This document shows positions 35,242 through 63,677 of a stretch of DNA of 64,000 nt, piece by piece (positions within the stretch are counted from its first letter, which is position 1; the number at the start of each line of letters is the position of its first letter). The notes under the pieces were generated by a model. That model did no database searches. It saw only the letters and a list, made by a program, of their open reading frames with translations, and was not told the DNA's origin. The position numbers and the translations under genes were made by a program. Location: the NCBI GenBank assembly GCA_016875535.1, contig VGPF01000002.1, positions 73,856 through 137,855 on the forward strand. Reading direction: 5' to 3'. This DNA is from Chloroflexota bacterium. GTDB taxonomy: Bacteria; Chloroflexota; Dehalococcoidia; SHYB01.

Positions 35242-36735
<1,494 letters not shown>

Positions 36736-41699: not shown

Positions 41700-41822
41700 G
41701 TGCCCTGGCAGTGGCATATTTTCCGCGGAGACTTCCGTCCCTAGTATCGTCTGCGCTGGTGCGTTTCACTTCCGTGTTCGGGATGGGAACGGGTGGGTCC
41801 ACACCGCTCTGACCACCAAAGC
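41700..41822 (-). rRNA. rrf: 5S ribosomal RNA (solo, not adjacent to 23S)
   Basis: Minus strand GCTTTGGTGGTCAGAGCGGTGTGGACCCACCCGTTCCCATCCCGAACACGGAAGTGAAACGCACCAGCGC…CTGCCAGGGCAC; matches 5S helix I-V pattern and the conserved CCGAAC…GAAGTGAAACG block. Confidence 0.9.
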
Positions 41823-43170: not shown

Positions 43171-43245
43171 GGGGCTGTAGCTCAGCGGTAGAGCATCCGG
43201 TTTGCATCCGGGGGGTCAGGGGTTCAAATCCCCTCAGCTCCACCA
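43171..43245 (+). tRNA. tRNA-Ala (anticodon TGC), CCA encoded
   Basis: Cloverleaf: acceptor GGGGCTG/CAGCTCC with G3:U70 Ala identity pair, D-arm GCTC-AGCGGTA-GAGC, anticodon loop TTTGCAT, T-arm AGGGG-TTCAAAT-CCCCT. Confidence 0.92.
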
Positions 43246-54055: not shown

Positions 54056-56521
54056 GTGATGACCTACGCGGAAATCGCCGTTGACGCCCCTGCCGGTCAG
54101 GGTGACACCTTTACTTACAGCGTCCCTGCCGGGCTGCGCCTTCGTCCAGGCCAGCTTGTAGAAGTCCCCTTCGGCCCGCGTCAGGCCCCAGGCTTTGTCT
54201 TCACCCTCTCAAAGACCACGGCGTACCCCGGTGAGCTCCGTCAGGTCACCCGGGTCATTGACGAACGGCCCTGGCTCTCGGATGTCCAGATCGCGCTCGC
54301 CAAATGGGTCTCCACCTACTATCGCTCGCCCGCCTATGCCGCCGCCGCCCTCGTCGTCCCGCCCGACCTTCGCCAGCGTGTGACCACTATCTATAGCCCG
54401 GTGCCCCAGCCCACATTAGAACAGGTCCGCGGCATCAAAGAGCCGGCGGCAAAGCTCCTTGGACACCTCGCCTCCTCCGGTCCATCAGCCCAGGGGGCTC
54501 TGGAGAAGCGCTTCGGCAAACGGCTTGCCGCTTCGGCCCTCCGCATCCTTGTCTCTCGCAATCTCGTCCAGCGCTCATGGCTCTTCGCCAAGCCCAAGGT
54601 GGGGCCGAAACTTGCCCCGGTCGTCTTCCTTGCCGTCTCCCTGCCAAAGGCTCTCGCCGAAGTATCGCGCCTCGAATCCACCGGCAAGCCCGCCGAAGCA
54701 AAGCAGGCGCTGCTCCTTCTTGATATCGCCCTTTCCGGCGAAGAAGGAGCCTTCGAATCTAGCCTCCGCCGGAGCCATACGGCCGTCACAACAACCCTTG
54801 CCTCCCTTGAAAGGCGCGGCCTGGTCCAACGCTCCCGCACGCGCGTCATGCGCGACCCGCTGGCAAACATCAGCCCTGCAAAGAGTGCGCCCCTTACATT
54901 GACGGCTGAACAGCAAGCCGCGTGGAACGCCGTAGAAGCTGCGATCGCCGCCAAGCCGTCCGCGCGAAAACCCCTGCTCCTCTTCGGCGTTACAGGCAGC
55001 GGCAAGACCGAGCTCTACATACGCGCCCTTGAGCGCGTCGTCCGGCAAGGCAAGCGCGGCATCGTGCTTGTCCCGGAGATCGCGCTGACGCCGCAGATCG
55101 TGGAGCGCTTTGCAGAGCGTTTCCTTGGGCGGGTCGCCGTCCTCCACAGCGGCCTCACGCCAGGTGAGCGCTTCGATGAGTGGTGGCGCATCCATGAGGG
55201 CGAAGCGAGCGTCGTCATCGGCTCGCGCAGCGCCATCTTCGCCCCACAGCCCGATCTCGGACTTATCGTCCTGGATGAAGAGCACGAATGGACCTACAAG
55301 CAGGAAGAGAACCAGCCCCTCTATCACGCGCGCGACGTGGCCTTGAAGCTCGCCGAACTGACCGGCGCCACCGTCATCCTTGGAAGCGCCACACCTTCGC
55401 TGGAGAGCTACCACTGCGCCCTCACCGGCCGGTATCAGCTCCTAGAGCTGAAGGAGCGCATCGGCGCCTCGCTTGAGACCGGGAAATCAGGCGCCCTTGC
55501 CCAGGTCAGCATCGTGGATATGCGGGAAGAGCTGAAAGGCGGCAACTCCAGCATCTTCAGCAACGCCCTCCGCTCCGAGATGCACCGCGCCCTTGCCGCT
55601 GGCGAGCAAGTGATCCTCTTCCTCAACCGCCGAGGCGCGGCGACCTTCGTCCAGTGCCGCGATTGCGGCTACGTCGCCAGGTGCCGCCGCTGCGATTCGC
55701 CCCTCACCTACCACAGCGATGCCGCCGACCTGGAGTGCCATCGCTGCGGCTATCATGTGCGCGCCCCAAGCCTCTGCCCCGAATGCGGCGGCAGGCGCAT
55801 CCGCTACATGGGCCTCGGCACCCAGCGGCTGGAGGAAGAGACGGCTCAGGCATTCCCTGCGGCGCGCCTCCTGCGGTGGGATCGCGATGTGACGCAGGCG
55901 CGCGGCTCCCATGAGGCCATCGTCCGCCGCTTCATCGCCCACCAGGCGGATGTGCTCATCGGCACGCAGATGCTCGCCAAAGGCCTGCACATCCCCAGCG
56001 TCACTCTCGTCGGTGTCGTCAATGCCGATATCGGTCTCCACTCGCCGGATTTTCGCGCCGCCGAGCGCGTCTTCCAAGTCCTCACCCAGGTGGCTGGGCG
56101 TTCCGGACGCGGCGAGCGTCCGGGCCGGGTCATCTTCCAGACCTATTCCCCGGACAACTATGCCATCCTGGCCGCCGCGACCCAGGACTACCCCGCCTTC
56201 TTTGCAGATGAGGTGCGGCGTCGCATGGAGCTTGGCCTCCCGTTGCTTACGCGCATCGCCCGCCTCCTCTTCCAGCACACGAACCGGCAAGCCGCCCAAG
56301 AAGAGGCTGAAAAGACGGCCAACCACCTTTCCGTCACTGCAGATACGCTTGGTCTTCCTGGAACAAAAGTGATTGGGCCTGCCCCTGCGCCCTACGAACG
56401 CCTGCGGGGACGCTATCGCTGGCAGGTGCTGGTCCAAGGCCTTGACCCCAACGCCCTGCTCGATGCCGTCAAGCTCTCCAAAGAATGGCTGGTGGACATA
56501 GACCCGCAGCATATGATGTAG
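54056..56521 (+). CDS. priA: primosomal protein N' (replication restart helicase PriA)
   Basis: 3'BD N-terminus, helicase motifs (GVTGSGKTE, DEEHE), Cys-rich Zn-binding insert CRDCGYVARCRRCDSPLTYH…CHRCGY…CPECGG. Confidence 0.92.
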   Translation: MMTYAEIAVDAPAGQGDTFTYSVPAGLRLRPGQLVEVPFGPRQAPGFVFTLSKTTAYPGELRQVTRVIDERPWLSDVQIALAKWVSTYYRSPAYAAAALVVPPDLRQRVTTIYSPVPQPTLEQVRGIKEPAAKLLGHLASSGPSAQGALEKRFGKRLAASALRILVSRNLVQRSWLFAKPKVGPKLAPVVFLAVSLPKALAEVSRLESTGKPAEAKQALLLLDIALSGEEGAFESSLRRSHTAVTTTLASLERRGLVQRSRTRVMRDPLANISPAKSAPLTLTAEQQAAWNAVEAAIAAKPSARKPLLLFGVTGSGKTELYIRALERVVRQGKRGIVLVPEIALTPQIVERFAERFLGRVAVLHSGLTPGERFDEWWRIHEGEASVVIGSRSAIFAPQPDLGLIVLDEEHEWTYKQEENQPLYHARDVALKLAELTGATVILGSATPSLESYHCALTGRYQLLELKERIGASLETGKSGALAQVSIVDMREELKGGNSSIFSNALRSEMHRALAAGEQVILFLNRRGAATFVQCRDCGYVARCRRCDSPLTYHSDAADLECHRCGYHVRAPSLCPECGGRRIRYMGLGTQRLEEETAQAFPAARLLRWDRDVTQARGSHEAIVRRFIAHQADVLIGTQMLAKGLHIPSVTLVGVVNADIGLHSPDFRAAERVFQVLTQVAGRSGRGERPGRVIFQTYSPDNYAILAAATQDYPAFFADEVRRRMELGLPLLTRIARLLFQHTNRQAAQEEAEKTANHLSVTADTLGLPGTKVIGPAPAPYERLRGRYRWQVLVQGLDPNALLDAVKLSKEWLVDIDPQHMM

Positions 56522-56615
56522 CGAACCCATAAGCCCTCCTTTGCGAAGGGGAAATGCCTCCCCTATAATCAGGTTGAACGTAGCGTCCGTCACGCGTCCC
56601 TTGAAAGGTATCCAA

Positions 56616-57131
56616 GTGGCCGTCCATCCAGTCCGCCAAGCGCCGGACCCGGTGCTGAGCACAAAGACAAAGCGCGTCACAAAGATCGACGCCAAGATCA
56701 AGCGATTGATCGAGGATCTATTCGATACGATGGTCGCTGAGCATGGTGTCGGTCTTGCCGCGAATCAGATCGGCGTGCCTCTTCGCGTGGCCGTCATCGT
56801 CATCCCTGCCGCGGAGGATGCGCCGGAGGAGCGCTACGTCCTTATCAACCCGGAGTTCGTGAAAAAGGGCGGTCAACGAACGATCAGCGAGGGCTGCCTA
56901 AGCGTCGCAGGCTACCGGGGAACGATCACCCGCTCCGAATGGGTCAAGGTCAAAGCGCTGAATGCAGAAGGCAAGGAGTTCCGCCTGAAGGCGGAAGGAC
57001 TTCTTGCCCAGGCCTTGGAGCATGAGATAGACCACTTAGACGGCGTCCTCTATGTGGATCGCCTCCGCGAGCAGGGCGGGCTCGAGACGTTGCAAAAGGT
57101 CGAAGAGACGCCCGAGCCGGTAGAGGCCTAG
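56616..57131 (+). CDS. def: peptide deformylase
   Basis: Motifs GVGLAANQIG, EGCLSV, HEIDHLDG; start taken at GTG 56616 with GAAAGG SD (track ORF has N-extension). Confidence 0.85.
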   Translation: MAVHPVRQAPDPVLSTKTKRVTKIDAKIKRLIEDLFDTMVAEHGVGLAANQIGVPLRVAVIVIPAAEDAPEERYVLINPEFVKKGGQRTISEGCLSVAGYRGTITRSEWVKVKALNAEGKEFRLKAEGLLAQALEHEIDHLDGVLYVDRLREQGGLETLQKVEETPEPVEA

Positions 57132-57181
57132 GTCCCCCCATCGGCGGTCAAGCCTCAAGTAAGAGACTCGGAGGAATCGCC

Positions 57182-58642
57182 ATCCGCATTCCTGCCGATA
57201 CCGTAGCCCTCCTCACCCATGTTCGCGCTATCCTTGCCGCCCACAACGCGGAAGGCTTTCTCGTCGGCGGCGCCGTCCGCGATCTGGTCATCCCGCGCCC
57301 AACCGCTGATCTTGACGTGGCCGTCTCCGGCAATGCGCGCCATCTGGCAGAGAGCCTCGCAAAAGCCCTCGATGGCCACTTCGTGCCTCTGGATGAAGAG
57401 CGCCACGTCTACCGCATCGTCCTTCCTTCCAATAGCCACTATATTGACCTCAGCGCCCTCCAGGGGAGTCTGACGCAGGACCTCAGGCGGCGCGACTTCA
57501 CCATTAACGCCCTCGCCCTTCCGCTTGAACACGTAGAAGCGCCTGACATCAAAAGGCATGTCGTTGATTTGGCCAACGGATCAGACGACATCACAGCTCG
57601 CCGCATCCGGCTCGTCTCCGATGAGGCGCTCCGCGACGACCCATTACGCCTCCTCCGCGCCGTCCGCCTCGCCACGCAGCTTGGCTTTACGATAGACGGC
57701 TCTACCGAAGCCGCCATCAAACGGGAGGCCCACCGCATCGCCACGGTAGCTCCCGAACGCGCCCGTGATGAGTTCTCCAAAATCGTCGGCTTTCCAGGGG
57801 CGGCCGCACGCCTCCAGCAGTTGGACGATTACCGGCTTCTTACCACCCTGATCCCGGAACTGGAAGAGGCCCGTGGCTGCGGCCAGCCGAAGGAGCACTA
57901 CTGGGACGTTCTCCAGCACTCCATGCAGATCGTCGGTTATGTGGAGCGTGTTGCCCGCCAATCACTCCCGGAGGACTCGCCTATCGGCGATGTTCCGTGG
58001 GACCAAGCGTACATTAACTACTTTGGCGAAAAGATCAGCGGCGGCAGAGACCGGCTCTTCCTGCTCAAGCTTTCCGCCTTACTCCACGATGTCTCAAAGC
58101 CCGCTACCAAAACCGTGGAAGCCGGCGGACGCATCCGCTTTTTTGGCCACCCCAAAATAGGGGCTGATGTCACGAAAAACATTATGGAAAGACTGCGCTA
58201 TAGCAACCGGGAGACGCGCATCGTCGTATCTACAGTATTGGAACACCTTCGCCCCGGCCTTATCACCCGGGAGGCAACGGGCCCCACCAGGCGCGCCGTC
58301 TACAGATTCTTCCGAGATGCCGGAGAGGCCGCTGTAGACACCCTCTTTCTCAGCTATGCCGACTACCTGGCGGCTAGAGGCCCCCTCCTGGACATGAAAG
58401 ACTGGAAGCAGTATTCCAAACGGATTTCTGGTATCCTGGAGGCTTGGCGGCAGGCTTCACCAGAAGTCAGGCCGCCGAAACTTATTGATGGACATGACCT
58501 TATTCGAGAGCTTGGCATGGACCCCGGCCCAAAGGTAGGCACTCTTCTGGAGGCTGTCTACGAAGCCGAGGCGGCGGGCGAAGTGGCAACCCACGCCCAG
58601 GCCATCGCCCTCGCGAAGCGGTTGAAAGACCAAGCCCGATAA
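57182..58642 (+). CDS. cca: CCA tRNA nucleotidyltransferase (class II NTase head + HD domain); start codon non-canonical/uncertain
   Basis: …GFLVGGAVRDLVIPRPTADLDVAV… catalytic motif lies upstream of the first in-frame ATG/GTG (57317); GGAGGA SD at 57170-57175 followed by ATC 57182 / ATT 57188; HD domain …LLHDVSKP…. Confidence 0.7.
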   Translation: MRIPADTVALLTHVRAILAAHNAEGFLVGGAVRDLVIPRPTADLDVAVSGNARHLAESLAKALDGHFVPLDEERHVYRIVLPSNSHYIDLSALQGSLTQDLRRRDFTINALALPLEHVEAPDIKRHVVDLANGSDDITARRIRLVSDEALRDDPLRLLRAVRLATQLGFTIDGSTEAAIKREAHRIATVAPERARDEFSKIVGFPGAAARLQQLDDYRLLTTLIPELEEARGCGQPKEHYWDVLQHSMQIVGYVERVARQSLPEDSPIGDVPWDQAYINYFGEKISGGRDRLFLLKLSALLHDVSKPATKTVEAGGRIRFFGHPKIGADVTKNIMERLRYSNRETRIVVSTVLEHLRPGLITREATGPTRRAVYRFFRDAGEAAVDTLFLSYADYLAARGPLLDMKDWKQYSKRISGILEAWRQASPEVRPPKLIDGHDLIRELGMDPGPKVGTLLEAVYEAEAAGEVATHAQAIALAKRLKDQAR

Positions 58643-58670
58643 CGCGAAATACTCTCACAAAGAGGCGAAG

Positions 58671-60035
58671 ATGCCTGTGCGCCTGACCAAGAAAAGACTC
58701 CAGCTCCTCTTCGTTGCCGTCTTGATCGGCCTCTCCCTCACCGTCCTGGTGATGAAGACGATTTCCATCGGTGATTTCGAGCGCGGCTCCAACGACACCC
58801 CTCTGGGTCTGCGGCTCGGCCTCGATCTCCAGGGCGGCACTCACCTCGTCTACCGCGCGCAGACCGGCGGCGTCACCAAAGACCAGATGCGCGGCGTCGC
58901 TGACGCTATCGAGCGGCGGGTCAACGGCTACGGTGTTGCTGAAGCCGTTGTCCAGCTGAAGGGGGCCAATGAAGTTGTCGTCCAGCTTCCCGGCATCAAG
59001 GACATTGACGAAGCGAAGCGACTCATCGGCAGCACGGCCCAGCTCGATTTCCGGCGCTGCGCGGTCCCCAATAGCTCGGCGGCTGCCTGTCCCAACTGGG
59101 TTCCCGCCACCGGCAGAGGGAACGGCGGCATAGAAAAGCACCTCACGGGCAAGTTCATGCGGCCCACCTCCCAGCTAGTGAACGATCCCCAGACAGGCCT
59201 CCCGGAAGTGGCCTTTGAATTCAACAACGAGGGTGCGGGCATCTTCGAACAGATCACCAGCTCCCTCATCGGCCAACCCCTCGGCATCTTCCTGGATAAC
59301 CAGCTCATCTCCGCCCCCACGGTCCAATCAACCATCTCCGATAGAGGCCGCATCACCGGCTTGACCTCTCAGGAAGGCCGCCGCCTCGCCATCCAACTCA
59401 ACGCTGGTTCGCTCCCCGTTGACGTCCGCGTTGTTCGAGAGGAGGCCGTCTCCGCCACCCTCGGGAAAGACTCGCTGGACAAGAGCTACGTCGCGGCCGC
59501 CATCGGCCTCGGGCTCGTTATGCTCTTCATGGTTCTCTACTACCGCCTGCCTGGGCTGGACGCCGCGATCACTATCGGCATCTATACAGTGATCGTCCTT
59601 GCCATCTTCAAGATGCTGAACGTGACCCTTACCCTGCCCGGCATCGCGGGCTTCGTCATCTCCGTCGGTATGGCCGTTGACGCAAACGTCATCATCTACG
59701 AGCGCCTGCGCGAAGAGCTGCGCGGCGGACGCGGCCTCGGCGGCGCCATCGCCACCGGCTTCGACCGCGCCTGGAACGCCATCCGCGATAGCAATATCAC
59801 CACCATCATCACCATGGCCATCCTTTGGTGGTTCGGCGATCGGCTGGGAGAGCCGAAGGTGACCGGCTTTGCCATCACCCTCATCATCTCCCTCCTCGTC
59901 GGCATGTTCTGCGCCCTCTTTATCAGCCGCCTCTTCTTGCGGCTCTTCGTGGGCACCAAGTACGCGGACCGAACGAATCTCTTTGCCCCAGTGAAAACAT
60001 CCGAAACATCCGCCCGCACAGCCTTGGGCGCGTGA
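58671..60035 (+). CDS. secD: protein translocase subunit SecD
   Basis: N-terminal TM, …LGLDLQGGTHLVY… SecD signature, C-terminal 5-TM bundle. Confidence 0.9.
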   Translation: MPVRLTKKRLQLLFVAVLIGLSLTVLVMKTISIGDFERGSNDTPLGLRLGLDLQGGTHLVYRAQTGGVTKDQMRGVADAIERRVNGYGVAEAVVQLKGANEVVVQLPGIKDIDEAKRLIGSTAQLDFRRCAVPNSSAAACPNWVPATGRGNGGIEKHLTGKFMRPTSQLVNDPQTGLPEVAFEFNNEGAGIFEQITSSLIGQPLGIFLDNQLISAPTVQSTISDRGRITGLTSQEGRRLAIQLNAGSLPVDVRVVREEAVSATLGKDSLDKSYVAAAIGLGLVMLFMVLYYRLPGLDAAITIGIYTVIVLAIFKMLNVTLTLPGIAGFVISVGMAVDANVIIYERLREELRGGRGLGGAIATGFDRAWNAIRDSNITTIITMAILWWFGDRLGEPKVTGFAITLIISLLVGMFCALFISRLFLRLFVGTKYADRTNLFAPVKTSETSARTALGA

Positions 60036-60048
60036 AGCAGGAGCCGCC

Positions 60049-62742
60049 GTGATCGACTTTGTACGCTATCGGAAATGGTACTTCCGCCTCTCGCTGGTGA
60101 TCGCGGTCGTCTGCATCATCGCTCTGGCCGTCCCCAAGCACCTCCCCTTCGGCCTGGAGTTCTCCAGCGGCAGCTCCATCACCGTTGACTTCAAGGAGCC
60201 CGTTGAGATAGACCAGGTGCGCGCCAAGCTTGCCGCCGTCGGCATCGAAGACGCCACCATCCAGAAGACGGGCGACACTTCCTTCTTCATCCGCACGGAA
60301 ATCATCGAAGAAGGCCTCGCCGCTATCCTGGAAAGGGACTTCGGCAAGGTCACCATCACGAGCCTTGAGGACGATGCGGCGAACCTCGCTTTGAACATCG
60401 TCTTCACGGATGCCGTGCCGCTCCGGGAACTCCGGGAAGGCTTCGGTTCGACGAAGCCCACGGGCCTCATCGCTGAACGCGCGGGAGCCAACACCTACTT
60501 CGTCAGCTCCCTACAACTGAGCAAGGAGACCTTGGATAAGGCCGCCGCCCTCTGGGAGCAGAAGTACGGCAAGACCGAGCGCATCACCTTCGAAGCCGCA
60601 GACGACTTGGCTATCACCATGAAGTTCAAGGCTGCCGTCACAGCGGCCGACGCCTCCAAGGAACTGACCGACCGCGGGATCCAGGGCGTCGTGACCGCCA
60701 ATACAGCCGCCGATACCCTGATTGTCGCCGCGCGCACCGTCACCGCGGAAACCCGCGAGACGCTTATCAAGACCCTCACGGACAAGTTCGGCGAGGCCGA
60801 GCAGGCCCCCTTCCCCTTCGATAAGGGCCAAGCTGTCATCTTCCGCTTCACAGACCCCGTTTCCCTGGAGAGCGTCGTGACCGCCCTTGGCGGCGCCCGG
60901 TTGAGTGAGCTGGCGGGCGAAAACGTGACCCTCTTCCGCCTCAACGATGGCTCTTACATCACAACGGCTTCGGCCATGACGGAGGAAGAGGCGGCCGCCC
61001 TCGTGAAGCGGTTCGAAGATGCCCTGGGAACGGTAACCCGCGTCAATCTGACCGCTCAAGACCTGGCCGTCACGGTGAACTTCGGAGCGGCCTTCAGTCT
61101 AGATACGCTTCGTCAGCATGTGAATCGCTTCGGCGCGGGCAAGGGCTTCTCCGACCCCTTCGGCACAAAGGGCCAGGCCGCCTCCCTCGTTGTTGAAGAG
61201 ATAAGCGCTACGGACCGCGAAGGCCTTCTGACGGCGATCAAGGAGAGCTTCGGCGAGGCCAATCGCACCGTCTTTGACGGCCCGGAGGGCTTCGCCTCCA
61301 TCTTCCGCTTCACGGCGCCTCCGGCAACCGTGACGGCGGCCGACGTAGAGGCTGAGCTGAAGTCCGGCGGCGTAGAGGGCGCTTCTGTGGTTGCCGCAGG
61401 CGAAAACCGCTTCTTCATCGGCATCGCGGCGATTGATACAGGCGCCAAGGCCCTCACTACACAGCGGCTCCAGGGCCGCTTCGGCCCGGCTGAGATAACG
61501 CCCCTAGACCTGACGAAGTCGCTCGCTCTCACCCTCGATTTCGGAGAGCCTTCGATAGCCCGCAACAACCTTGTCGCCTCGATCGAAGATGTCTTCGCTG
61601 AAAAGCAGGTCTCCGTGCTCCACAGCGCCGCCAACACCTTCACCCTCGTCGCGCGCGGCGTCTCAGCGGCCGACCAGGAGAAAATCCTCAAGCAACTCGA
61701 AGGCGAATTCGGCGTTGCGGTGAAGACCCAACTCGTCACCGATGCCGGAAAGGCCTTCACGGTCGCCTTTACTGATAGCGCGAAGGTCTCAGCCGCGGCG
61801 CATGAGTCCTTCATCATCCACAAGACCGGCCCTAACGCCTTCTTCCTTGGCGGCACCAAGGTGTCTGCCACACAACAGGCGGCTGCGCTGCTCGGCCTTG
61901 CCCAGACTCACGGCCCTATCGGCCAAAGCAGCTTCAACTACGTCACAAGTCTCGCGCAGCAGCTCACCTTAACTCGCGCCGTCACACCGGACGAGTTGAA
62001 AGCCGCCATCGAGCCCTTCGGCTACAAGGACACGACGATTGAGGCCCGCGATGGCGGCCTCTTCATCCGAGGTCCGCGCCCGCTCGATGACCAGCGGAGC
62101 ACCATCCTCCGCACCCTTGAGGGGATCGCCCCCATCAACCGCGACACGGTTGAGTTCTCCTCCGTTGACTCGGAGATCGCCAAACGCTCCATCCTCAACA
62201 CCACCTGGGCCGTCCTCGCAGGTATCATCGGCATCCTTATCTACCTCTGGTGGGCCTTCCGGAAAGTGCCCAAGTCCTACCGCTACGGCGTCGTCGCGAC
62301 CATTGCCATGTTTCAGGACGTCCTCATCGTCCTCGGGGCCTTCGGCATCCTCGCCAAATTCACCGAGGTCGAAATCAACTCCCTCATGGTCGTCGGCATC
62401 CTCTCTGTCATCGGCTATAGCGTCAATAACACCATCATCGTCCTCGACCGCATCCGCGAGAATCTCGCCGATAGGACCGCTCGGGATTTTGAAACCTACG
62501 TAAACATCGCACTGAACCAGACCCTCACGCGCAACTTTAACACCAGCATCACCACCCTCATCACCATCCTCGCTGTCCTCTTCTTCGGCGGCCCCACCGT
62601 GCATGACTTCATGTACGTCTTTCTTATCGGTGTGCTCGCGGGCGTTTATAGCTCCCTCTTCATCGCGCCGACGCTCCTTGTCTCCTGGGAGAGGGGCGAG
62701 CTGAGAATGCCGTTCTCCTCCAAAAAGAAGGCGGCGGCCTAG
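60049..62742 (+). CDS. secF: protein translocase subunit SecF with ~670-aa repeat-expanded periplasmic domain
   Basis: N-terminal MIDFVRYRKWYFRLSLVIAVVCIIALAV and C-terminal 5 TM helices (…FQDVLIVLGAFGIL…, …YSVNNTIIVLDRIRE…) are canonical SecF; between them ~8 degenerate ~75-aa modules each with (D/E)xFGxxxxT motif. Confidence 0.85.
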   Translation: MIDFVRYRKWYFRLSLVIAVVCIIALAVPKHLPFGLEFSSGSSITVDFKEPVEIDQVRAKLAAVGIEDATIQKTGDTSFFIRTEIIEEGLAAILERDFGKVTITSLEDDAANLALNIVFTDAVPLRELREGFGSTKPTGLIAERAGANTYFVSSLQLSKETLDKAAALWEQKYGKTERITFEAADDLAITMKFKAAVTAADASKELTDRGIQGVVTANTAADTLIVAARTVTAETRETLIKTLTDKFGEAEQAPFPFDKGQAVIFRFTDPVSLESVVTALGGARLSELAGENVTLFRLNDGSYITTASAMTEEEAAALVKRFEDALGTVTRVNLTAQDLAVTVNFGAAFSLDTLRQHVNRFGAGKGFSDPFGTKGQAASLVVEEISATDREGLLTAIKESFGEANRTVFDGPEGFASIFRFTAPPATVTAADVEAELKSGGVEGASVVAAGENRFFIGIAAIDTGAKALTTQRLQGRFGPAEITPLDLTKSLALTLDFGEPSIARNNLVASIEDVFAEKQVSVLHSAANTFTLVARGVSAADQEKILKQLEGEFGVAVKTQLVTDAGKAFTVAFTDSAKVSAAAHESFIIHKTGPNAFFLGGTKVSATQQAAALLGLAQTHGPIGQSSFNYVTSLAQQLTLTRAVTPDELKAAIEPFGYKDTTIEARDGGLFIRGPRPLDDQRSTILRTLEGIAPINRDTVEFSSVDSEIAKRSILNTTWAVLAGIIGILIYLWWAFRKVPKSYRYGVVATIAMFQDVLIVLGAFGILAKFTEVEINSLMVVGILSVIGYSVNNTIIVLDRIRENLADRTARDFETYVNIALNQTLTRNFNTSITTLITILAVLFFGGPTVHDFMYVFLIGVLAGVYSSLFIAPTLLVSWERGELRMPFSSKKKAAA

Positions 62743-62804
62743 GCCCGAGTCGAACGCAAGGGAGAACCTGTGTTTGGTGCTCCCGGAGGTGCAGGAGAAG
62801 GCCG

Positions 62805-63677
62805 TTAGCGCCTGCCCGTCTCTTCGCGCACCTGCCGCGTATACGCCTTCTGCAGCTCTCGCGTCACCGGGCCGGGATTGCCGCCGCCGATCGGCCTGCC
62901 GTCCACCTCAACCAGCGGCATCACTTCAATGACGGCGTTGGTGAGAAAGGCCTCTTCCGCCAGCAAAAGCGCCCACCGGAGGAGCTTCCCCTCATGCACG
63001 CGCCGTTCCGTCGAACGGGCCAGTTCAAGGACCGTCTTCCGCGTGACGCCGGGCAGGATGCCGCAACCCAAAGACGGGGTGTACAGCGTGCCCCGTCGCA
63101 CGAAAAAGATATTGCTCGTCGCCCCTTCGGCTACATCGCCCTGCTCATTCAGCAGCAGCGCCTCATCAGCTCCGCTCTCCCTGGCCTCAGCGCGGGCCAT
63201 GAGATGCTCTACGTAGCTCGTCGCCTTGACCCTTGCCGCGCGCGACGTGCTGCTCCTTCGGACGGAGGCGAAGATCGCCGTGTACCCGGATCGAGCGACC
63301 TTTTCAAGGCCGGGAGGAAGCTCAGCGCACGTCACAAAGACGTTCGGCGACCCCTTGGCCGGAAATACCGGCCCGTCGCCCCCGGACCCCGCCGTCACCG
63401 TCACGCGGATCCGCGCCTCTCGAAGCCTGTTGCGGCTCAGAACCCCGGCGATGGCCCCGGCGATAGCTTCACGCTGCCCCCGGATAGCTATGCCGAAGCT
63501 ATCGGTGTTCGCGATGAGCCTGTCCAGGTGATCGCCCAACCGGAAAACGACGCCGTCATAGGCCCGCATCGTATCGAAGACCCCGTGGCCGTAGAGGACG
63601 CCTTGATCAGTGATCGGAAGGCTGGCCCTTTCGATACTCATGTACCGGCCGTTGAGATAGACGATTGGGGATGGCAT
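62805..63677 (-). CDS. class IV aminotransferase (branched-chain/D-amino-acid aminotransferase or ADC lyase family)
   Basis: …ITDQGVLYGHGVFDTMRAY… and …EGATSNIFFV… fold-type IV PLP motifs. Confidence 0.85.
   Translation of the reverse strand: MPSPIVYLNGRYMSIERASLPITDQGVLYGHGVFDTMRAYDGVVFRLGDHLDRLIANTDSFGIAIRGQREAIAGAIAGVLSRNRLREARIRVTVTAGSGGDGPVFPAKGSPNVFVTCAELPPGLEKVARSGYTAIFASVRRSSTSRAARVKATSYVEHLMARAEARESGADEALLLNEQGDVAEGATSNIFFVRRGTLYTPSLGCGILPGVTRKTVLELARSTERRVHEGKLLRWALLLAEEAFLTNAVIEVMPLVEVDGRPIGGGNPGPVTRELQKAYTRQVREETGRR

What the first reader, a model, noticed from the sequence alone, without database searches (positions are those of the whole stretch)
60049..62742. SecF with a periplasmic domain expanded ~5-fold by about eight tandem degenerate ~75-aa modules
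The canonical SecF elements are intact: the N-terminal TM helix (MIDFVRYRKWYF…) and the C-terminal 5-TM bundle with the conserved …NTIIVLDRIRE… motif. Between them, the periplasmic segment is ~670 aa instead of the usual ~120-150. It is built of repeated modules, each carrying a (D/E)xFG-x4-(I/V)T-like core:
- ERDFGKVTITSLED
- EQKYGKTERITFEA
- TDKFGEAEQAPFPF
- EDALGTVTRVNLTA
- KESFGEANRTVFDG
- QGRFGPAEITPLDL
- EGEFGVAVKTQLVT
- IEPFGYKDTTIEAR
These resemble the single ferredoxin-like P4 subdomain of ordinary SecF. An 897-aa SecF built by iterated duplication of its periplasmic head is highly atypical. It may reflect a thick or unusual cell envelope, or substrate-handling specialisation.
Basis: partly seen in the sequence, partly recalled or inferred. 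Interest (0 to 1): 0.55.

Follow-up and report, generated by a model that had tools for sequence, protein, structure and literature searches.

The report
SecF with nine tandem P4 domains
This is a real protein-export gene (secF) whose small outward-facing domain was copied into nine tandem copies long ago and kept by selection in a rare group of Chloroflexota bacteria, an unreported and extreme variant of a well-known machine whose added function is still unknown.

Summary
The 897-aa ORF at 60049-62742 (+) is a genuine SecF. It scores 239.6 bits on TIGR00966 (cut-off 160), has six TM helices and lies 13 nt after a normal 454-aa secD.

Its periplasmic loop is about 670 aa; the median in 112 ordinary relatives is 83 aa. 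The loop consists of nine (not eight) tandem ~73-aa modules. Leave-one-out HMMs beat all shuffles. Each module position matches the P4 profile of ordinary SecFs (HHalign 89-99%). AlphaFold2 gives nine beta-alpha-beta-beta-alpha-beta units at pLDDT 80-92.

It is not an assembly artefact. There is no DNA-level repeat, the identical protein occurs in two independent assemblies, and position-by-position orthologues exist in Thermoflexus and Dehalococcoidia MAGs. dN/dS of the array is about 0.16.

The form is rare: 11 of 1.84 billion representative proteins at E<=1e-30, with 9 or 11 modules where full-length. At the same syntenic locus, related bacteria carry SecF with 1, 2 or several units, or instead an expanded SecD next to a normal SecF.

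The function of the array is inferred only. I propose a both-ends-anchored exoplasmic scaffold added to the proton-driven SecDF motor. No paper found describes it. Verdict: a new variant of a known kind, of moderate interest.

The parts
58671..60035 (+). secD, 454 aa, ordinary architecture. It is the partner subunit and is encoded immediately upstream of secF.
   Evidence: TIGR01129 at 356 bits (cut-off 244). Pfam SecD_1st, SecDF_P1_head and SecD_SecF_C. The TM4 Asp is present in GMAVDAN at aa 333-339.
60039..60043 (+). AGGAG ribosome-binding site, 5 nt upstream of the GTG start of secF.
   Evidence: Read directly from the sequence.
60049..62742 (+). secF ORF, 897 aa, with a GTG start.
   Evidence: An identical protein occurs in two independent assemblies.
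60070..60174 (+). TM1 (aa 8-27) and the GG-motif linker (aa 31-42, LPFGLEFSSGSS).
   Evidence: AlphaFold2 helix H8-27. Weak Sec_GG Pfam match at aa 31-52. Aa 3-72 align to D. radiodurans SecDF 443-511.
60175..60381 (+). Module 1 (aa 43-111), next to the membrane. It is the most conserved module and the best match to the ordinary P4 domain.
   Evidence: Leave-one-out score 37.7 bits. HHalign 99.1% to the ordinary-SecF P4 profile. DSSP: E41-48 H54-63 E70-73 E78-84 H87-98 E101-105. 49-54% identity in three of the four deep comparisons (38% in the fourth).
60388..60606 (+). Module 2 (aa 114-186).
   Evidence: Leave-one-out 17.1 bits. HHalign 96.4% to P4. DSSP E-H-E-E-H-E.
60610..60828 (+). Module 3 (aa 188-260).
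   Evidence: Leave-one-out 46.4 bits. HHalign 97.1% to P4. Stand-alone AlphaFold2 model at pLDDT 87 with a ferredoxin-like fold.
60835..61065 (+). Module 4 (aa 263-339).
   Evidence: Leave-one-out 18.0 bits. HHalign 96.6% to P4.
61066..61290 (+). Module 5 (aa 340-414).
   Evidence: Leave-one-out 20.5 bits. HHalign 95.7% to P4.
61297..61521 (+). Module 6 (aa 417-491).
   Evidence: Leave-one-out 29.9 bits. HHalign 97.9% to P4.
61525..61749 (+). Module 7 (aa 493-567).
   Evidence: Leave-one-out 29.2 bits. HHalign 94.8% to P4.
61753..61950 (+).
   Evidence: Found by an HMM that was not trained on it (iE 4.6e-6). Leave-one-out 21.7 bits. HHalign 89.2% to P4.
61954..62172 (+). Module 9 (aa 636-708), next to the membrane and leading into TM2. 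It carries the C-terminal half of the canonical SecF P4 match.
   Evidence: TIGR00966 stretch aa 644-880 matches profile positions 49-279. HHalign 98.3% to P4. Leave-one-out is only 8.9 bits. 47-51% identity in three of the four deep comparisons (37% in the fourth).
62170..62691 (+). TM2-TM6 bundle (aa 708-881), containing the NTIIVLDRIRE motif.
   Evidence: Pfam SecD_SecF_C at 3.3e-47. PDB sequence matches to 3AQP, 5XAN and 5MG3_F. AlphaFold2 helices H708-736, 744-772, 778-807, 814-846 and 849-881.
62428..62430 (+). Codon for Asn794, at the position of the TM10 Asp reported as essential (esAspX, Thermus thermophilus D637).
   Evidence: Residue-by-residue alignment to 3AQP. Asn in 30 of 30 family members and in 111 of 120 nearest ordinary SecFs. 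Essentiality as reported in PMC5974789.
62530..62532 (+). Codon for Arg828, the conserved TM11 Arg (esArgXI, Thermus thermophilus R671).
   Evidence: Alignment to 3AQP. Invariant in the family alignment.

Best explanation
This is the SecF half of a SecD/SecF protein-export motor in a Thermoflexus-like Chloroflexota bacterium.

Shown:
- The single ferredoxin-like periplasmic P4 domain has been amplified by ancient internal duplication into nine tandem, complete beta-alpha-beta-beta-alpha-beta domains joined by linkers of 0-2 residues.
- The array starts right after TM1 and ends right before TM2, so it is a loop tethered to the membrane at both ends.
- The nine-module order was fixed before the Thermoflexus-like and Dehalococcoidia-like members diverged. 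One subgroup added two more central modules, giving 11.
- The array is under purifying selection. The two membrane-proximal modules (1 and 9) are the most conserved.

Inferred mechanism:
- The TM bundle, together with SecD, still runs the ion-driven cycle. The SecD TM4 Asp and the SecF TM11 Arg are both present.
- Modules 1 and/or 9 play the role of the ordinary P4, packing against the SecD P1-base sheet.
- Modules 2-8 project outward as an extra exoplasmic scaffold. It may hold or guide emerging unfolded proteins, or keep a working space open in the wall zone of these probably single-membrane bacteria.

The identity and evolutionary origin are well supported (about 0.9). The proposed function of the array is a guess (about 0.3).
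For: Identity:
- TIGR00966 at 239.6 bits against a cut-off of 160; Pfam SecD_SecF_C.
- PDB sequence matches to SecDF entries 3AQP, 5XAN and 5MG3_F. Foldseek on the full model ranks SecDF first and RND pumps next.
- secD lies immediately upstream.

Repeats:
- Self-match offsets are multiples of ~75 aa.
- Leave-one-out HMM scores exceed all shuffles.
- 35 of 36 module-position pairs reach >=83% HHalign probability, in register.

Module equals P4:
- All nine position profiles match the P4 profile of 112 ordinary SecFs at 89-99% over ~69 columns (45 columns for module 8).
- In a search of 1.84 billion proteins, the module profile hits the single TM1-TM2 loop domain of ~300-aa SecFs and of SecDF fusions.

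Fold:
- The AlphaFold2 full model shows nine E-H-E-E-H-E units at pLDDT 80-92.
- The single-module model has pLDDT 87 and matches ferredoxin-like folds at TM 0.55-0.63.
- P4 is described as having this same topology (PMC8277102).

Age and constraint:
- No DNA-level repeat.
- Orthologous modules match position by position: 9 of 9 against P0021 and 8 of 9 against P0033.
- Full-length members have 9 or 11 modules.
- dN/dS is 0.16 for the array and 0.11 for the TM region.
- At deep divergence, modules 1 and 9 are 37-54% identical, internal modules 14-38%.

Catalytic residues: SecD GMAVDAN and SecF R828 are present.

Parallel expansions at the syntenic locus suggest selection for extra periplasmic modules in the complex.
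Against: - No direct evidence bears on what the array does, and no partner or substrate is known.
- The tools returned no coordinates or inter-domain error estimates. pTM is only 0.53, and the two junctions to the membrane have pLDDT below 50. The loop, hairpin or ring geometry, and which module contacts SecD, are therefore unknown.
- The TM10 Asp reported as essential is Asn, so the ion-coupling chemistry may differ. The same Asn is found in most ordinary-length relatives, so it is not linked to the expansion.
- Module 9 is only weakly detected from the paralogues within this one protein (8.9 bits).
- Foldseek with a single module ranks HMA and PII domains, not SecDF, and all E-values exceed 0.01. 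The link to P4 therefore rests on sequence profiles.
- dS is close to saturation (1.1-1.3), so the dN/dS values are approximate.
Confidence: 0.8

Rival explanations
1. Assembly artefact: a collapsed or expanded repeat, or a chimeric contig, produced a falsely long secF.
For: Tandem repeats are a classic source of misassembly, and the data come from metagenomes.
Against: - There is no DNA-level tandem repeat with a period near 225 nt. Only short similarities of 14-38 nt at 61-94% identity exist.
- The identical 897-aa protein is found on contigs from two independent runs, SRR7990526 and SRR7053297.
- Orthologues of 882-902 aa at 36-78% identity exist, including on chromosome-level MAGs of 2.8-3.7 Mb.
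- The reading frame is intact and under purifying selection.
Confidence: 0.01
2. The array is a foreign ferredoxin-like domain family (for example HMA-like or PII-like) inserted into SecF, not duplicated P4.
For: Foldseek with one module ranks HMA domains, PII-like proteins and designed ferredoxin folds first, not SecDF. The PDB sequence-profile search with the modules does not reach SecDF.
Against: - All those structural matches have E>0.01 and reflect the generic fold only.
- The modules contain no Cys at all, so the metal-binding CxxC motif of HMA domains is absent.
- Every module position aligns in register to the P4 profile of ordinary SecFs at 89-99%.
- In 1.84 billion proteins, nearly all hits that were inspected are SecF, SecD or SecDF proteins (or N-terminal fragments consistent with SecF). 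The exceptions are a few unrelated repeat proteins.
Confidence: 0.03
3. The extra modules are tolerated, essentially neutral repeat growth with no specific role; only modules 1 and 9 matter.
For: Internal modules are far less conserved (14-38% identity) than modules 1 and 9 (37-54%) at deep divergence. Other lineages show quite different expansions, which suggests this loop tolerates insertions.
Against: - Module number and order are conserved across lineages sharing only 30-40% identity.
- dN/dS of internal modules 4-8 is 0.16.
- Every module keeps a confidently predicted complete fold. No decayed or truncated copies are seen.
- Repeated independent expansion in SecF or SecD at the same locus looks like convergence.
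Confidence: 0.1
4. The same protein, but the array works as an envelope spacer or anchor, or as a docking platform, rather than handling substrates. It would bind wall, S-layer or sheath components or partner proteins such as YidC, foldases or signal peptidase, positioning the translocon in a single-membrane envelope.
For: - In E. coli, SecF contacts the YidC periplasmic domain, and the SecDF periplasmic domains are proposed to reach BAM (PMC8669966).
- In strands such as AITMKFK, hydrophobic and polar residues alternate, as expected for a strand with one buried and one solvent-exposed face (read).
- Own knowledge, unverified: Chloroflexota are generally regarded as having a single membrane.
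Against: No binding motif, partner gene or envelope correlation was found. The neighbouring genes are housekeeping genes (priA, def, a CCA/poly(A)-polymerase-family gene, an aminotransferase). The tools used here cannot distinguish this from the holdase idea.
Confidence: 0.25

Closest known systems
Canonical SecF / the SecF half of SecDF (T. thermophilus 3AQP, D. radiodurans 5XAN/5XAP, E. coli 5MG3_F; TIGR00966)
   Same: - Six-TM RND-type half-transporter encoded next to secD.
- The TM2-6 bundle aligns over ~170 residues (1e-24 to 3e-34).
- The TM11 Arg is conserved.
- The loop between TM1 and TM2 is made of the same ferredoxin-like P4 domain type.
   Different: - Nine P4 domains instead of one; a loop of ~670 aa against a median of 83 aa.
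- The TM10 Asp (D637) is Asn794.
- Where both SecD and SecF halves of an enlarged NCBIfam SecDF model were matched, the gap between them leaves room only for a P4 of about 130-160 aa (profile coordinates). This is an inference.
Porter (PD) subdomains of RND pumps such as AcrB, MexB and CusA
   Same: They share the beta-alpha-beta-beta-alpha-beta fold and belong to the same superfamily. RND pumps already carry two such subdomains per periplasmic loop (PMC8277102). The full model hits AcrB-type pumps after SecDF.
   Different: RND pumps have two subdomains per loop plus a docking domain, and they form trimers with substrate channels. Here nine subdomains lie in one loop of a SecF, with no docking domain.
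Other expanded SecF and SecD proteins of Chloroflexota found here (unnamed)
   Same: They sit at the same syntenic locus (def, a PolyA_pol/CCA-enzyme gene, secD, secF; priA upstream in three of the four loci and an Aminotran_4 gene downstream in three of the four). The extra units match the same module profile.
   Different: - Unit length and number differ: 2-module SecFs (~366-398 aa), 49-aa units (P0043), 35-aa units (P0044, P0087), ~85-aa units (P0050).
- In some the expansion is in SecD (P0045, 925 aa) with a normal 324-aa SecF.
- They fall outside the 9/11-module clade in a rough TM-domain tree, except the 2-module P0042, which is its sister.
POTRA-domain arrays of BamA/TamA/TpsB (a functional analogy only)
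   Same: Tandem small alpha/beta domains on the exoplasmic side of a protein-transport machine, thought to chaperone unfolded substrates. This rests on my own knowledge and was not tested.
   Different: A different fold (beta-alpha-alpha-beta-beta), no homology, and tethered at one end only. The analogy is a lead, not evidence.

Membership tests
SecF (TIGR00966, protein translocase subunit SecF) | Scores above the curated family cut-off. | tested here: met
   239.6 bits against a cut-off of 160, matched in two stretches (the larger is aa 644-880 against profile positions 49-279).
SecF (TIGR00966, protein translocase subunit SecF) | Six TM helices with one large loop between TM1 and TM2. | tested here: met
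   AlphaFold2 helices H8-27, 708-736, 744-772, 778-807, 814-846 and 849-881. The hydropathy scan agrees.
SecF (TIGR00966, protein translocase subunit SecF) | Encoded next to, or fused with, SecD. | tested here: met
   secD (TIGR01129, 356 bits) ends 13 nt upstream. The same pairing is seen in all related loci.
SecF (TIGR00966, protein translocase subunit SecF) | Conserved TM11 Arg (esArgXI). | tested here: met
   R828 aligns with T. thermophilus R671 and is invariant in the family.
SecF (TIGR00966, protein translocase subunit SecF) | Conserved TM10 Asp (esAspX), reported as essential. | tested here: not met
   N794 aligns with T. thermophilus D637. It is Asn in 30 of 30 family members and in 111 of 120 nearest ordinary SecFs, so this is a lineage trait and not a sign of a pseudogene.
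SecF (TIGR00966, protein translocase subunit SecF) | A single ferredoxin-like P4 periplasmic domain of about 80-110 aa. | tested here: not met
   Nine tandem P4-type domains and a ~670-aa loop. This is the variant feature.
SecF (TIGR00966, protein translocase subunit SecF) | Ion-motive-force-driven stimulation of Sec translocation together with SecD. | not testable with these tools
   Needs biochemistry or genetics.
RND superfamily | RND-type TM fold with ferredoxin-like periplasmic (porter-type) subdomains. | tested here: met
   Foldseek on the full model gives SecDF at E 2e-12, then AcrB, MexB, MexY and CusA at E 1e-7 to 1e-5. SecD shows weak MMPL and ACR_tran Pfam matches.
HMA (heavy-metal-associated) domain | Ferredoxin-like fold plus a metal-binding CxxC motif. 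| tested here: not met
   The fold resemblance is TM ~0.6 at E>0.01. No module contains any Cys (sequences). There is no Pfam HMA hit.

The most novel reading that the evidence does not exclude
The nine (or eleven) P4-type domains, together with the homologous SecD P1-base, assemble into one ordered superstructure: a long arch, ring or tube of 10-12 ferredoxin-like units tethered at both ends. Driven by the TM ion cycle, it would carry or shield secretory proteins across the wall zone of single-membrane Chloroflexota. That would be an envelope-reaching version of SecDF. The fact that sister lineages expand SecD instead of SecF at the same locus would then mean that selection acts on the total number of periplasmic modules in the complex.
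Probability: 0.15. Interest if true: 0.75.

Novelty: new variant of a known kind. Interest (0 to 1): 0.55.

Why it matters
The role of the P4 and P1-base part of SecDF is the least understood part of this export motor. Here nature has multiplied exactly that element nine- to eleven-fold and kept it under selection. Related bacteria made parallel expansions in SecD or SecF at the same locus.

This gives a graded natural series for asking what P4 does: SecF with 1, 2, 9 or 11 complete modules, plus several SecFs carrying repeats of other unit lengths. It could also show how secretion is adapted to the poorly known envelopes of Chloroflexota.

A relative, Thermoflexus hugenholtzii JAD2, is cultured. 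A MAG assigned to that species encodes a 71%-identical (best tblastn segment), truncated orthologue, so experiments are conceivable.

Public databases currently label these proteins simply as 'SecF', with no flag for the unusual architecture.

Tried and rejected
- Plain BLASTP of the protein against itself returned only the identity hit. I switched to 100-aa fragments and HMMs.
- The PDB sequence search with the nine-module profile gave only sub-threshold hits (L7/L12, ATP synthase delta, PII; E>=0.05) and did not reach SecDF.
- A first canonical-P4 profile built from six distant SecDF/SecF sequences linked only to modules 1 and 9. A profile of 112 ordinary Chloroflexota SecFs linked to all nine.
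- Foldseek with one module did not single out SecDF P4. It showed only the generic ferredoxin-like fold.
- The module HMM does not detect E. coli SecF or Bacteroides-type SecDF fusions.
- Six literature searches combining terms such as SecF, SecDF, Chloroflexi/Chloroflexota, Dehalococcoidia, Thermoflexus hugenholtzii, P4 domain, ferredoxin-like, tandem repeats, domain duplication and RND superfamily found no description of this architecture. The Thermoflexus genomics paper only lists SecD/F as present.
- The TM-only homologue search did not list the family itself, presumably because of the word-index candidate selection. It did give the length distribution of the nearest ordinary SecFs.
- I considered and rejected an assembly artefact, a foreign-domain insertion and a domain-swapped single P4 carrying an insert. 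Against the last: AlphaFold2 gives modules 1 and 9 each a full set of strands and helices, although the match to the TIGR00966 profile is split between the N-terminus and aa 644-880.
- The geometry of the array could not be assessed, because the tools return no coordinates or PAE.
Full report
**1. The observation**

The ORF at 60049..62742 (+) is present exactly as described: 897 aa with a GTG start. An AGGAG ribosome-binding site lies 5 nt upstream. The gene starts 13 nt after the stop of a 454-aa secD at 58671..60035. GC content is even across the gene at about 0.60-0.64.

**2. Identity**

NCBIfam TIGR00966 (SecF) scores 239.6 bits against a curated cut-off of 160. The match is in two stretches; the larger is aa 644-880 against profile positions 49-279. 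Pfam finds SecD_SecF_C at aa 697-881 (3.3e-47) and a weak Sec_GG match at aa 31-52. It finds nothing between them.

The upstream gene is an ordinary SecD, with TIGR01129 at 356 bits and the SecD_1st and P1_head domains. A PDB sequence search hits only SecDF/SecF entries (5XAN, 5XAM, 3AQP, 5MG3_F). Aa 3-72 align to the start of the SecF half of D. radiodurans SecDF, and aa ~700-882 align to its TM8-12.

**3. The repeats are real, and there are nine**

- BLASTP of 100-aa fragments against the whole protein gives off-diagonal matches whose offsets cluster at multiples of ~75 aa: 72-74, 150-154, 219-228, 307 and 376.
It weakly finds a ninth at aa 642-669.
- In leave-one-out tests, modules 1-8 score 17-46 bits, while 300 shuffles of each never exceed 13 bits. 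Module 9 scores 8.9 against a maximum of 6.1.
- With profiles built from orthologous modules of ten family members, 35 of 36 module-position pairs align in register at >=83% HHalign probability.

The modules are aa 43-111, 114-186, 188-260, 263-339, 340-414, 417-491, 493-567, 569-634 and 636-708, joined by linkers of 0-2 residues. Module 8 was missed.

**4. Each module is a P4 domain**

I built a profile of the TM1-TM2 loop from 112 ordinary ~305-aa SecFs, the nearest TM-domain relatives. It aligns to every one of the nine module-position profiles at 89-99% probability. The alignments cover ~69 columns in register; module 8 aligns over 45 columns. That set has a median loop length of 83 aa (range 74-111), so the expansion is about 8-fold.

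Independently, I searched a 67-sequence module profile against 1.84 billion representative proteins:
- Only 161 proteins match at E<=1e-3.
- Many are ~300-aa proteins with a single match at aa ~42-115, between TM1 and TM2. Two of these that I tested score 262 and 268 bits on TIGR00966.
- Others are SecDF fusions matched at the equivalent place in the SecF half.

**5. Structure**

AlphaFold2 on the full protein with a 20-sequence family alignment gives mean pLDDT 79, with 80-92 across the array. DSSP shows nine consecutive E-H-E-E-H-E units followed by five long helices. Module 3 modelled alone has pLDDT 87 and the same topology.

Foldseek on the single module returns generic ferredoxin-like folds (HMA, PII, designed ferredoxins; TM 0.55-0.63; all E>0.01). 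The fold is therefore shown by structure prediction, while homology to P4 rests on sequence profiles. P4 is described in the literature as a classic beta1-alpha1-beta2-beta3-alpha-beta4 domain, like RND porter subdomains, that forms an 8-stranded sheet with the SecD P1-base (PMC8277102; PMC5974789). Foldseek on the full model ranks SecDF first and RND pumps next.

The two junctions between the array and the membrane have pLDDT below 50, and pTM is 0.53. No coordinates were available, so the geometry of the array is unknown.

**6. Not an artefact, and old**

- There is no DNA tandem repeat with a period near 225 nt. Only short imperfect similarities exist.
- The identical protein is encoded on contigs from two independent sequencing runs.
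- Relatives of 882-902 aa (36-78% identity) and of ~1047 aa exist.
- A scan of one genome per GTDB species found 13 loci: a Thermoflexus hugenholtzii MAG (71%), one MAG labelled only Chloroflexota bacterium, and Dehalococcoidia MAGs including chromosome-level assemblies (28-38%).
- A module HMM counts nine modules in every full-length member except one subgroup with eleven (P0004, P0005, L008, L012).
- Modules are orthologous position by position: 9 of 9 best matches on the diagonal against P0021, and 8 of 9 against P0033.
- Against four deeply diverged homologues, modules 1 and 9 are 37-54% identical (47-54% in three of the four), the internal modules 14-38% and the TM bundle 59-67%.
- dN/dS against the Thermoflexus MAG gene is 0.16 for the array (also 0.16 for internal modules 4-8) and 0.11 for the TM region. 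dS is near saturation, so these values are approximate.

**7. Wider context found on the way**

The nearest ordinary SecFs by TM domain (47-56% identity, Dehalococcoidia/Chloroflexota) are 292-341 aa. The nine-module form is therefore a rare departure: 11 representatives at E<=1e-30 among 1.84 billion proteins.

It is not the only expansion. The same search found:
- SecFs with two modules (P0042, 388 aa, and others of ~366-398 aa).
- SecFs with other repeat periods: 49 aa in P0043, 35 aa in P0044 and P0087 (684 and 708 aa), and ~85 aa in P0050.
- SecD proteins of 836-925 aa carrying ~73-aa modules (P0045, P0048, P0054, P0094).

The gene order def, PolyA_pol/CCA-enzyme gene, secD, secF is shared by all four loci compared. 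priA lies upstream in the window, L017 and L018; an Aminotran_4 gene lies downstream in the window, L018 and L019.

| Locus | SecD (aa) | SecF (aa) |
|---|---|---|
| Window | 454 | 897 |
| L018 | 440 | 708 |
| L019 | 451 | 388 |
| L017 | 925 | 324 |

A rough neighbour-joining tree of the TM domain, without support values, places the 9- and 11-module proteins in one clade with the 2-module P0042 as sister. The other multi-unit SecFs fall among ordinary ones, which suggests several independent expansions.

**8. How it most likely works**

Shown: it is a SecF paired with a normal SecD. The SecD TM4 Asp (GMAVDAN) and the SecF TM11 Arg (R828) are present. The array is tethered at both ends, is made of complete P4-type domains, and is under purifying selection. 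The membrane-proximal modules are the most constrained.

Inferred: the TM core runs the usual ion-driven cycle. Module 1 and/or 9 substitutes for the ordinary P4 against the SecD P1-base. Modules 2-8 form an added exoplasmic scaffold. Whether that scaffold holds emerging unfolded proteins, spaces or anchors the translocon in the wall zone, or docks partners cannot be decided here. I give the substrate-handling scaffold reading about 0.3 and the spacer/docking reading about 0.25.

One caveat applies to 'canonical elements intact'. The TM10 Asp that the SecDF literature calls essential (T. thermophilus D637; PMC5974789) is Asn794 here. The same Asn occurs in 30 of 30 family members and in 111 of 120 nearest ordinary-length SecFs. 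It is therefore a lineage trait unrelated to the expansion.

**9. Novelty**

Six literature searches found no description of a multi-P4 SecF. The Thermoflexus genome paper only lists SecD/F as present. NCBI and JGI name these proteins plainly 'SecF'.

This is a new variant of a known kind and not a new system. It is of interest because it amplifies the least understood part of SecDF, and because related lineages offer a natural series of module numbers in either subunit.

Noticed in passing
window 62428-62430 (SecF codon 794): The TM10 Asp reported as essential for SecDF (esAspX, T. thermophilus D637) is naturally Asn. It is Asn in all 30 family members and in 111 of 120 nearest ordinary-length Chloroflexota/Dehalococcoidia SecFs. 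Other Chloroflexota SecFs have HD or ND at this spot.
   Followed up: partly
L017 5001-8752 (protein P0045 and its neighbour): At the same syntenic locus (priA, def, a PolyA_pol/CCA-enzyme gene, secD, secF), another metagenomic bacterium has an expanded SecD of 925 aa next to an ordinary 324-aa SecF. By eye the SecD carries about six ~73-aa P4-like modules; the module HMM detects four locally, and the 1.84-billion-protein search reports six matched stretches. P0048, P0054 and P0094 are similar SecDs.
   Followed up: partly
P0044, P0087 (L018 5001-7127), P0050, P0043, P0042 (L019 4001-5167): Other Chloroflexota SecFs carry different repeat architectures in the same loop: 35-aa units in P0044 and P0087 (probably beta-alpha-beta half-units), 49-aa units in P0043, ~85-aa units in P0050, and two-module forms of ~366-398 aa. 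In a rough TM-domain tree most lie outside the 9/11-module clade, which suggests independent expansions.
   Followed up: partly
P0004, P0005, L008 6001-8496, L012 6001-8490: One subgroup has 11 modules. The two extra modules sit between the positions of modules 2 and 4 and most resemble the central module types 3, 5, 6 and 7. Both counts seen in full-length members (9 and 11) are odd; the reason is unexplained.
   Followed up: partly
P0015 (1047-aa SecDF fusion, aa ~556-858): A SecDF fusion protein from another lineage has about 300 aa between TM7 and TM8 that the module profile does not match. It may be a different kind of P4 enlargement.
   Followed up: no
window 35242-36735 (-), 41703-41820 (-), 43171-43242 (+): The window holds a complete 16S rRNA gene and a 5S rRNA gene on the same strand about 5 kb apart, with the 5S upstream of the 16S. 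No 23S rRNA match appears anywhere in the 64 kb, so the rRNA genes seem to be unlinked or unusually ordered. A tRNA gene lies nearby.
   Followed up: no
window ~54056-63677; L014, L015, L017, L018, L019: The gene order def, PolyA_pol/CCA-enzyme gene, secD, secF is conserved across the window and all related loci compared, whatever the SecD or SecF length. priA lies upstream in the window, L014, L015, L017 and L018. A class IV aminotransferase gene lies downstream on the opposite strand in the window, L014, L018 and L019; it is absent in L017.
   Followed up: yes
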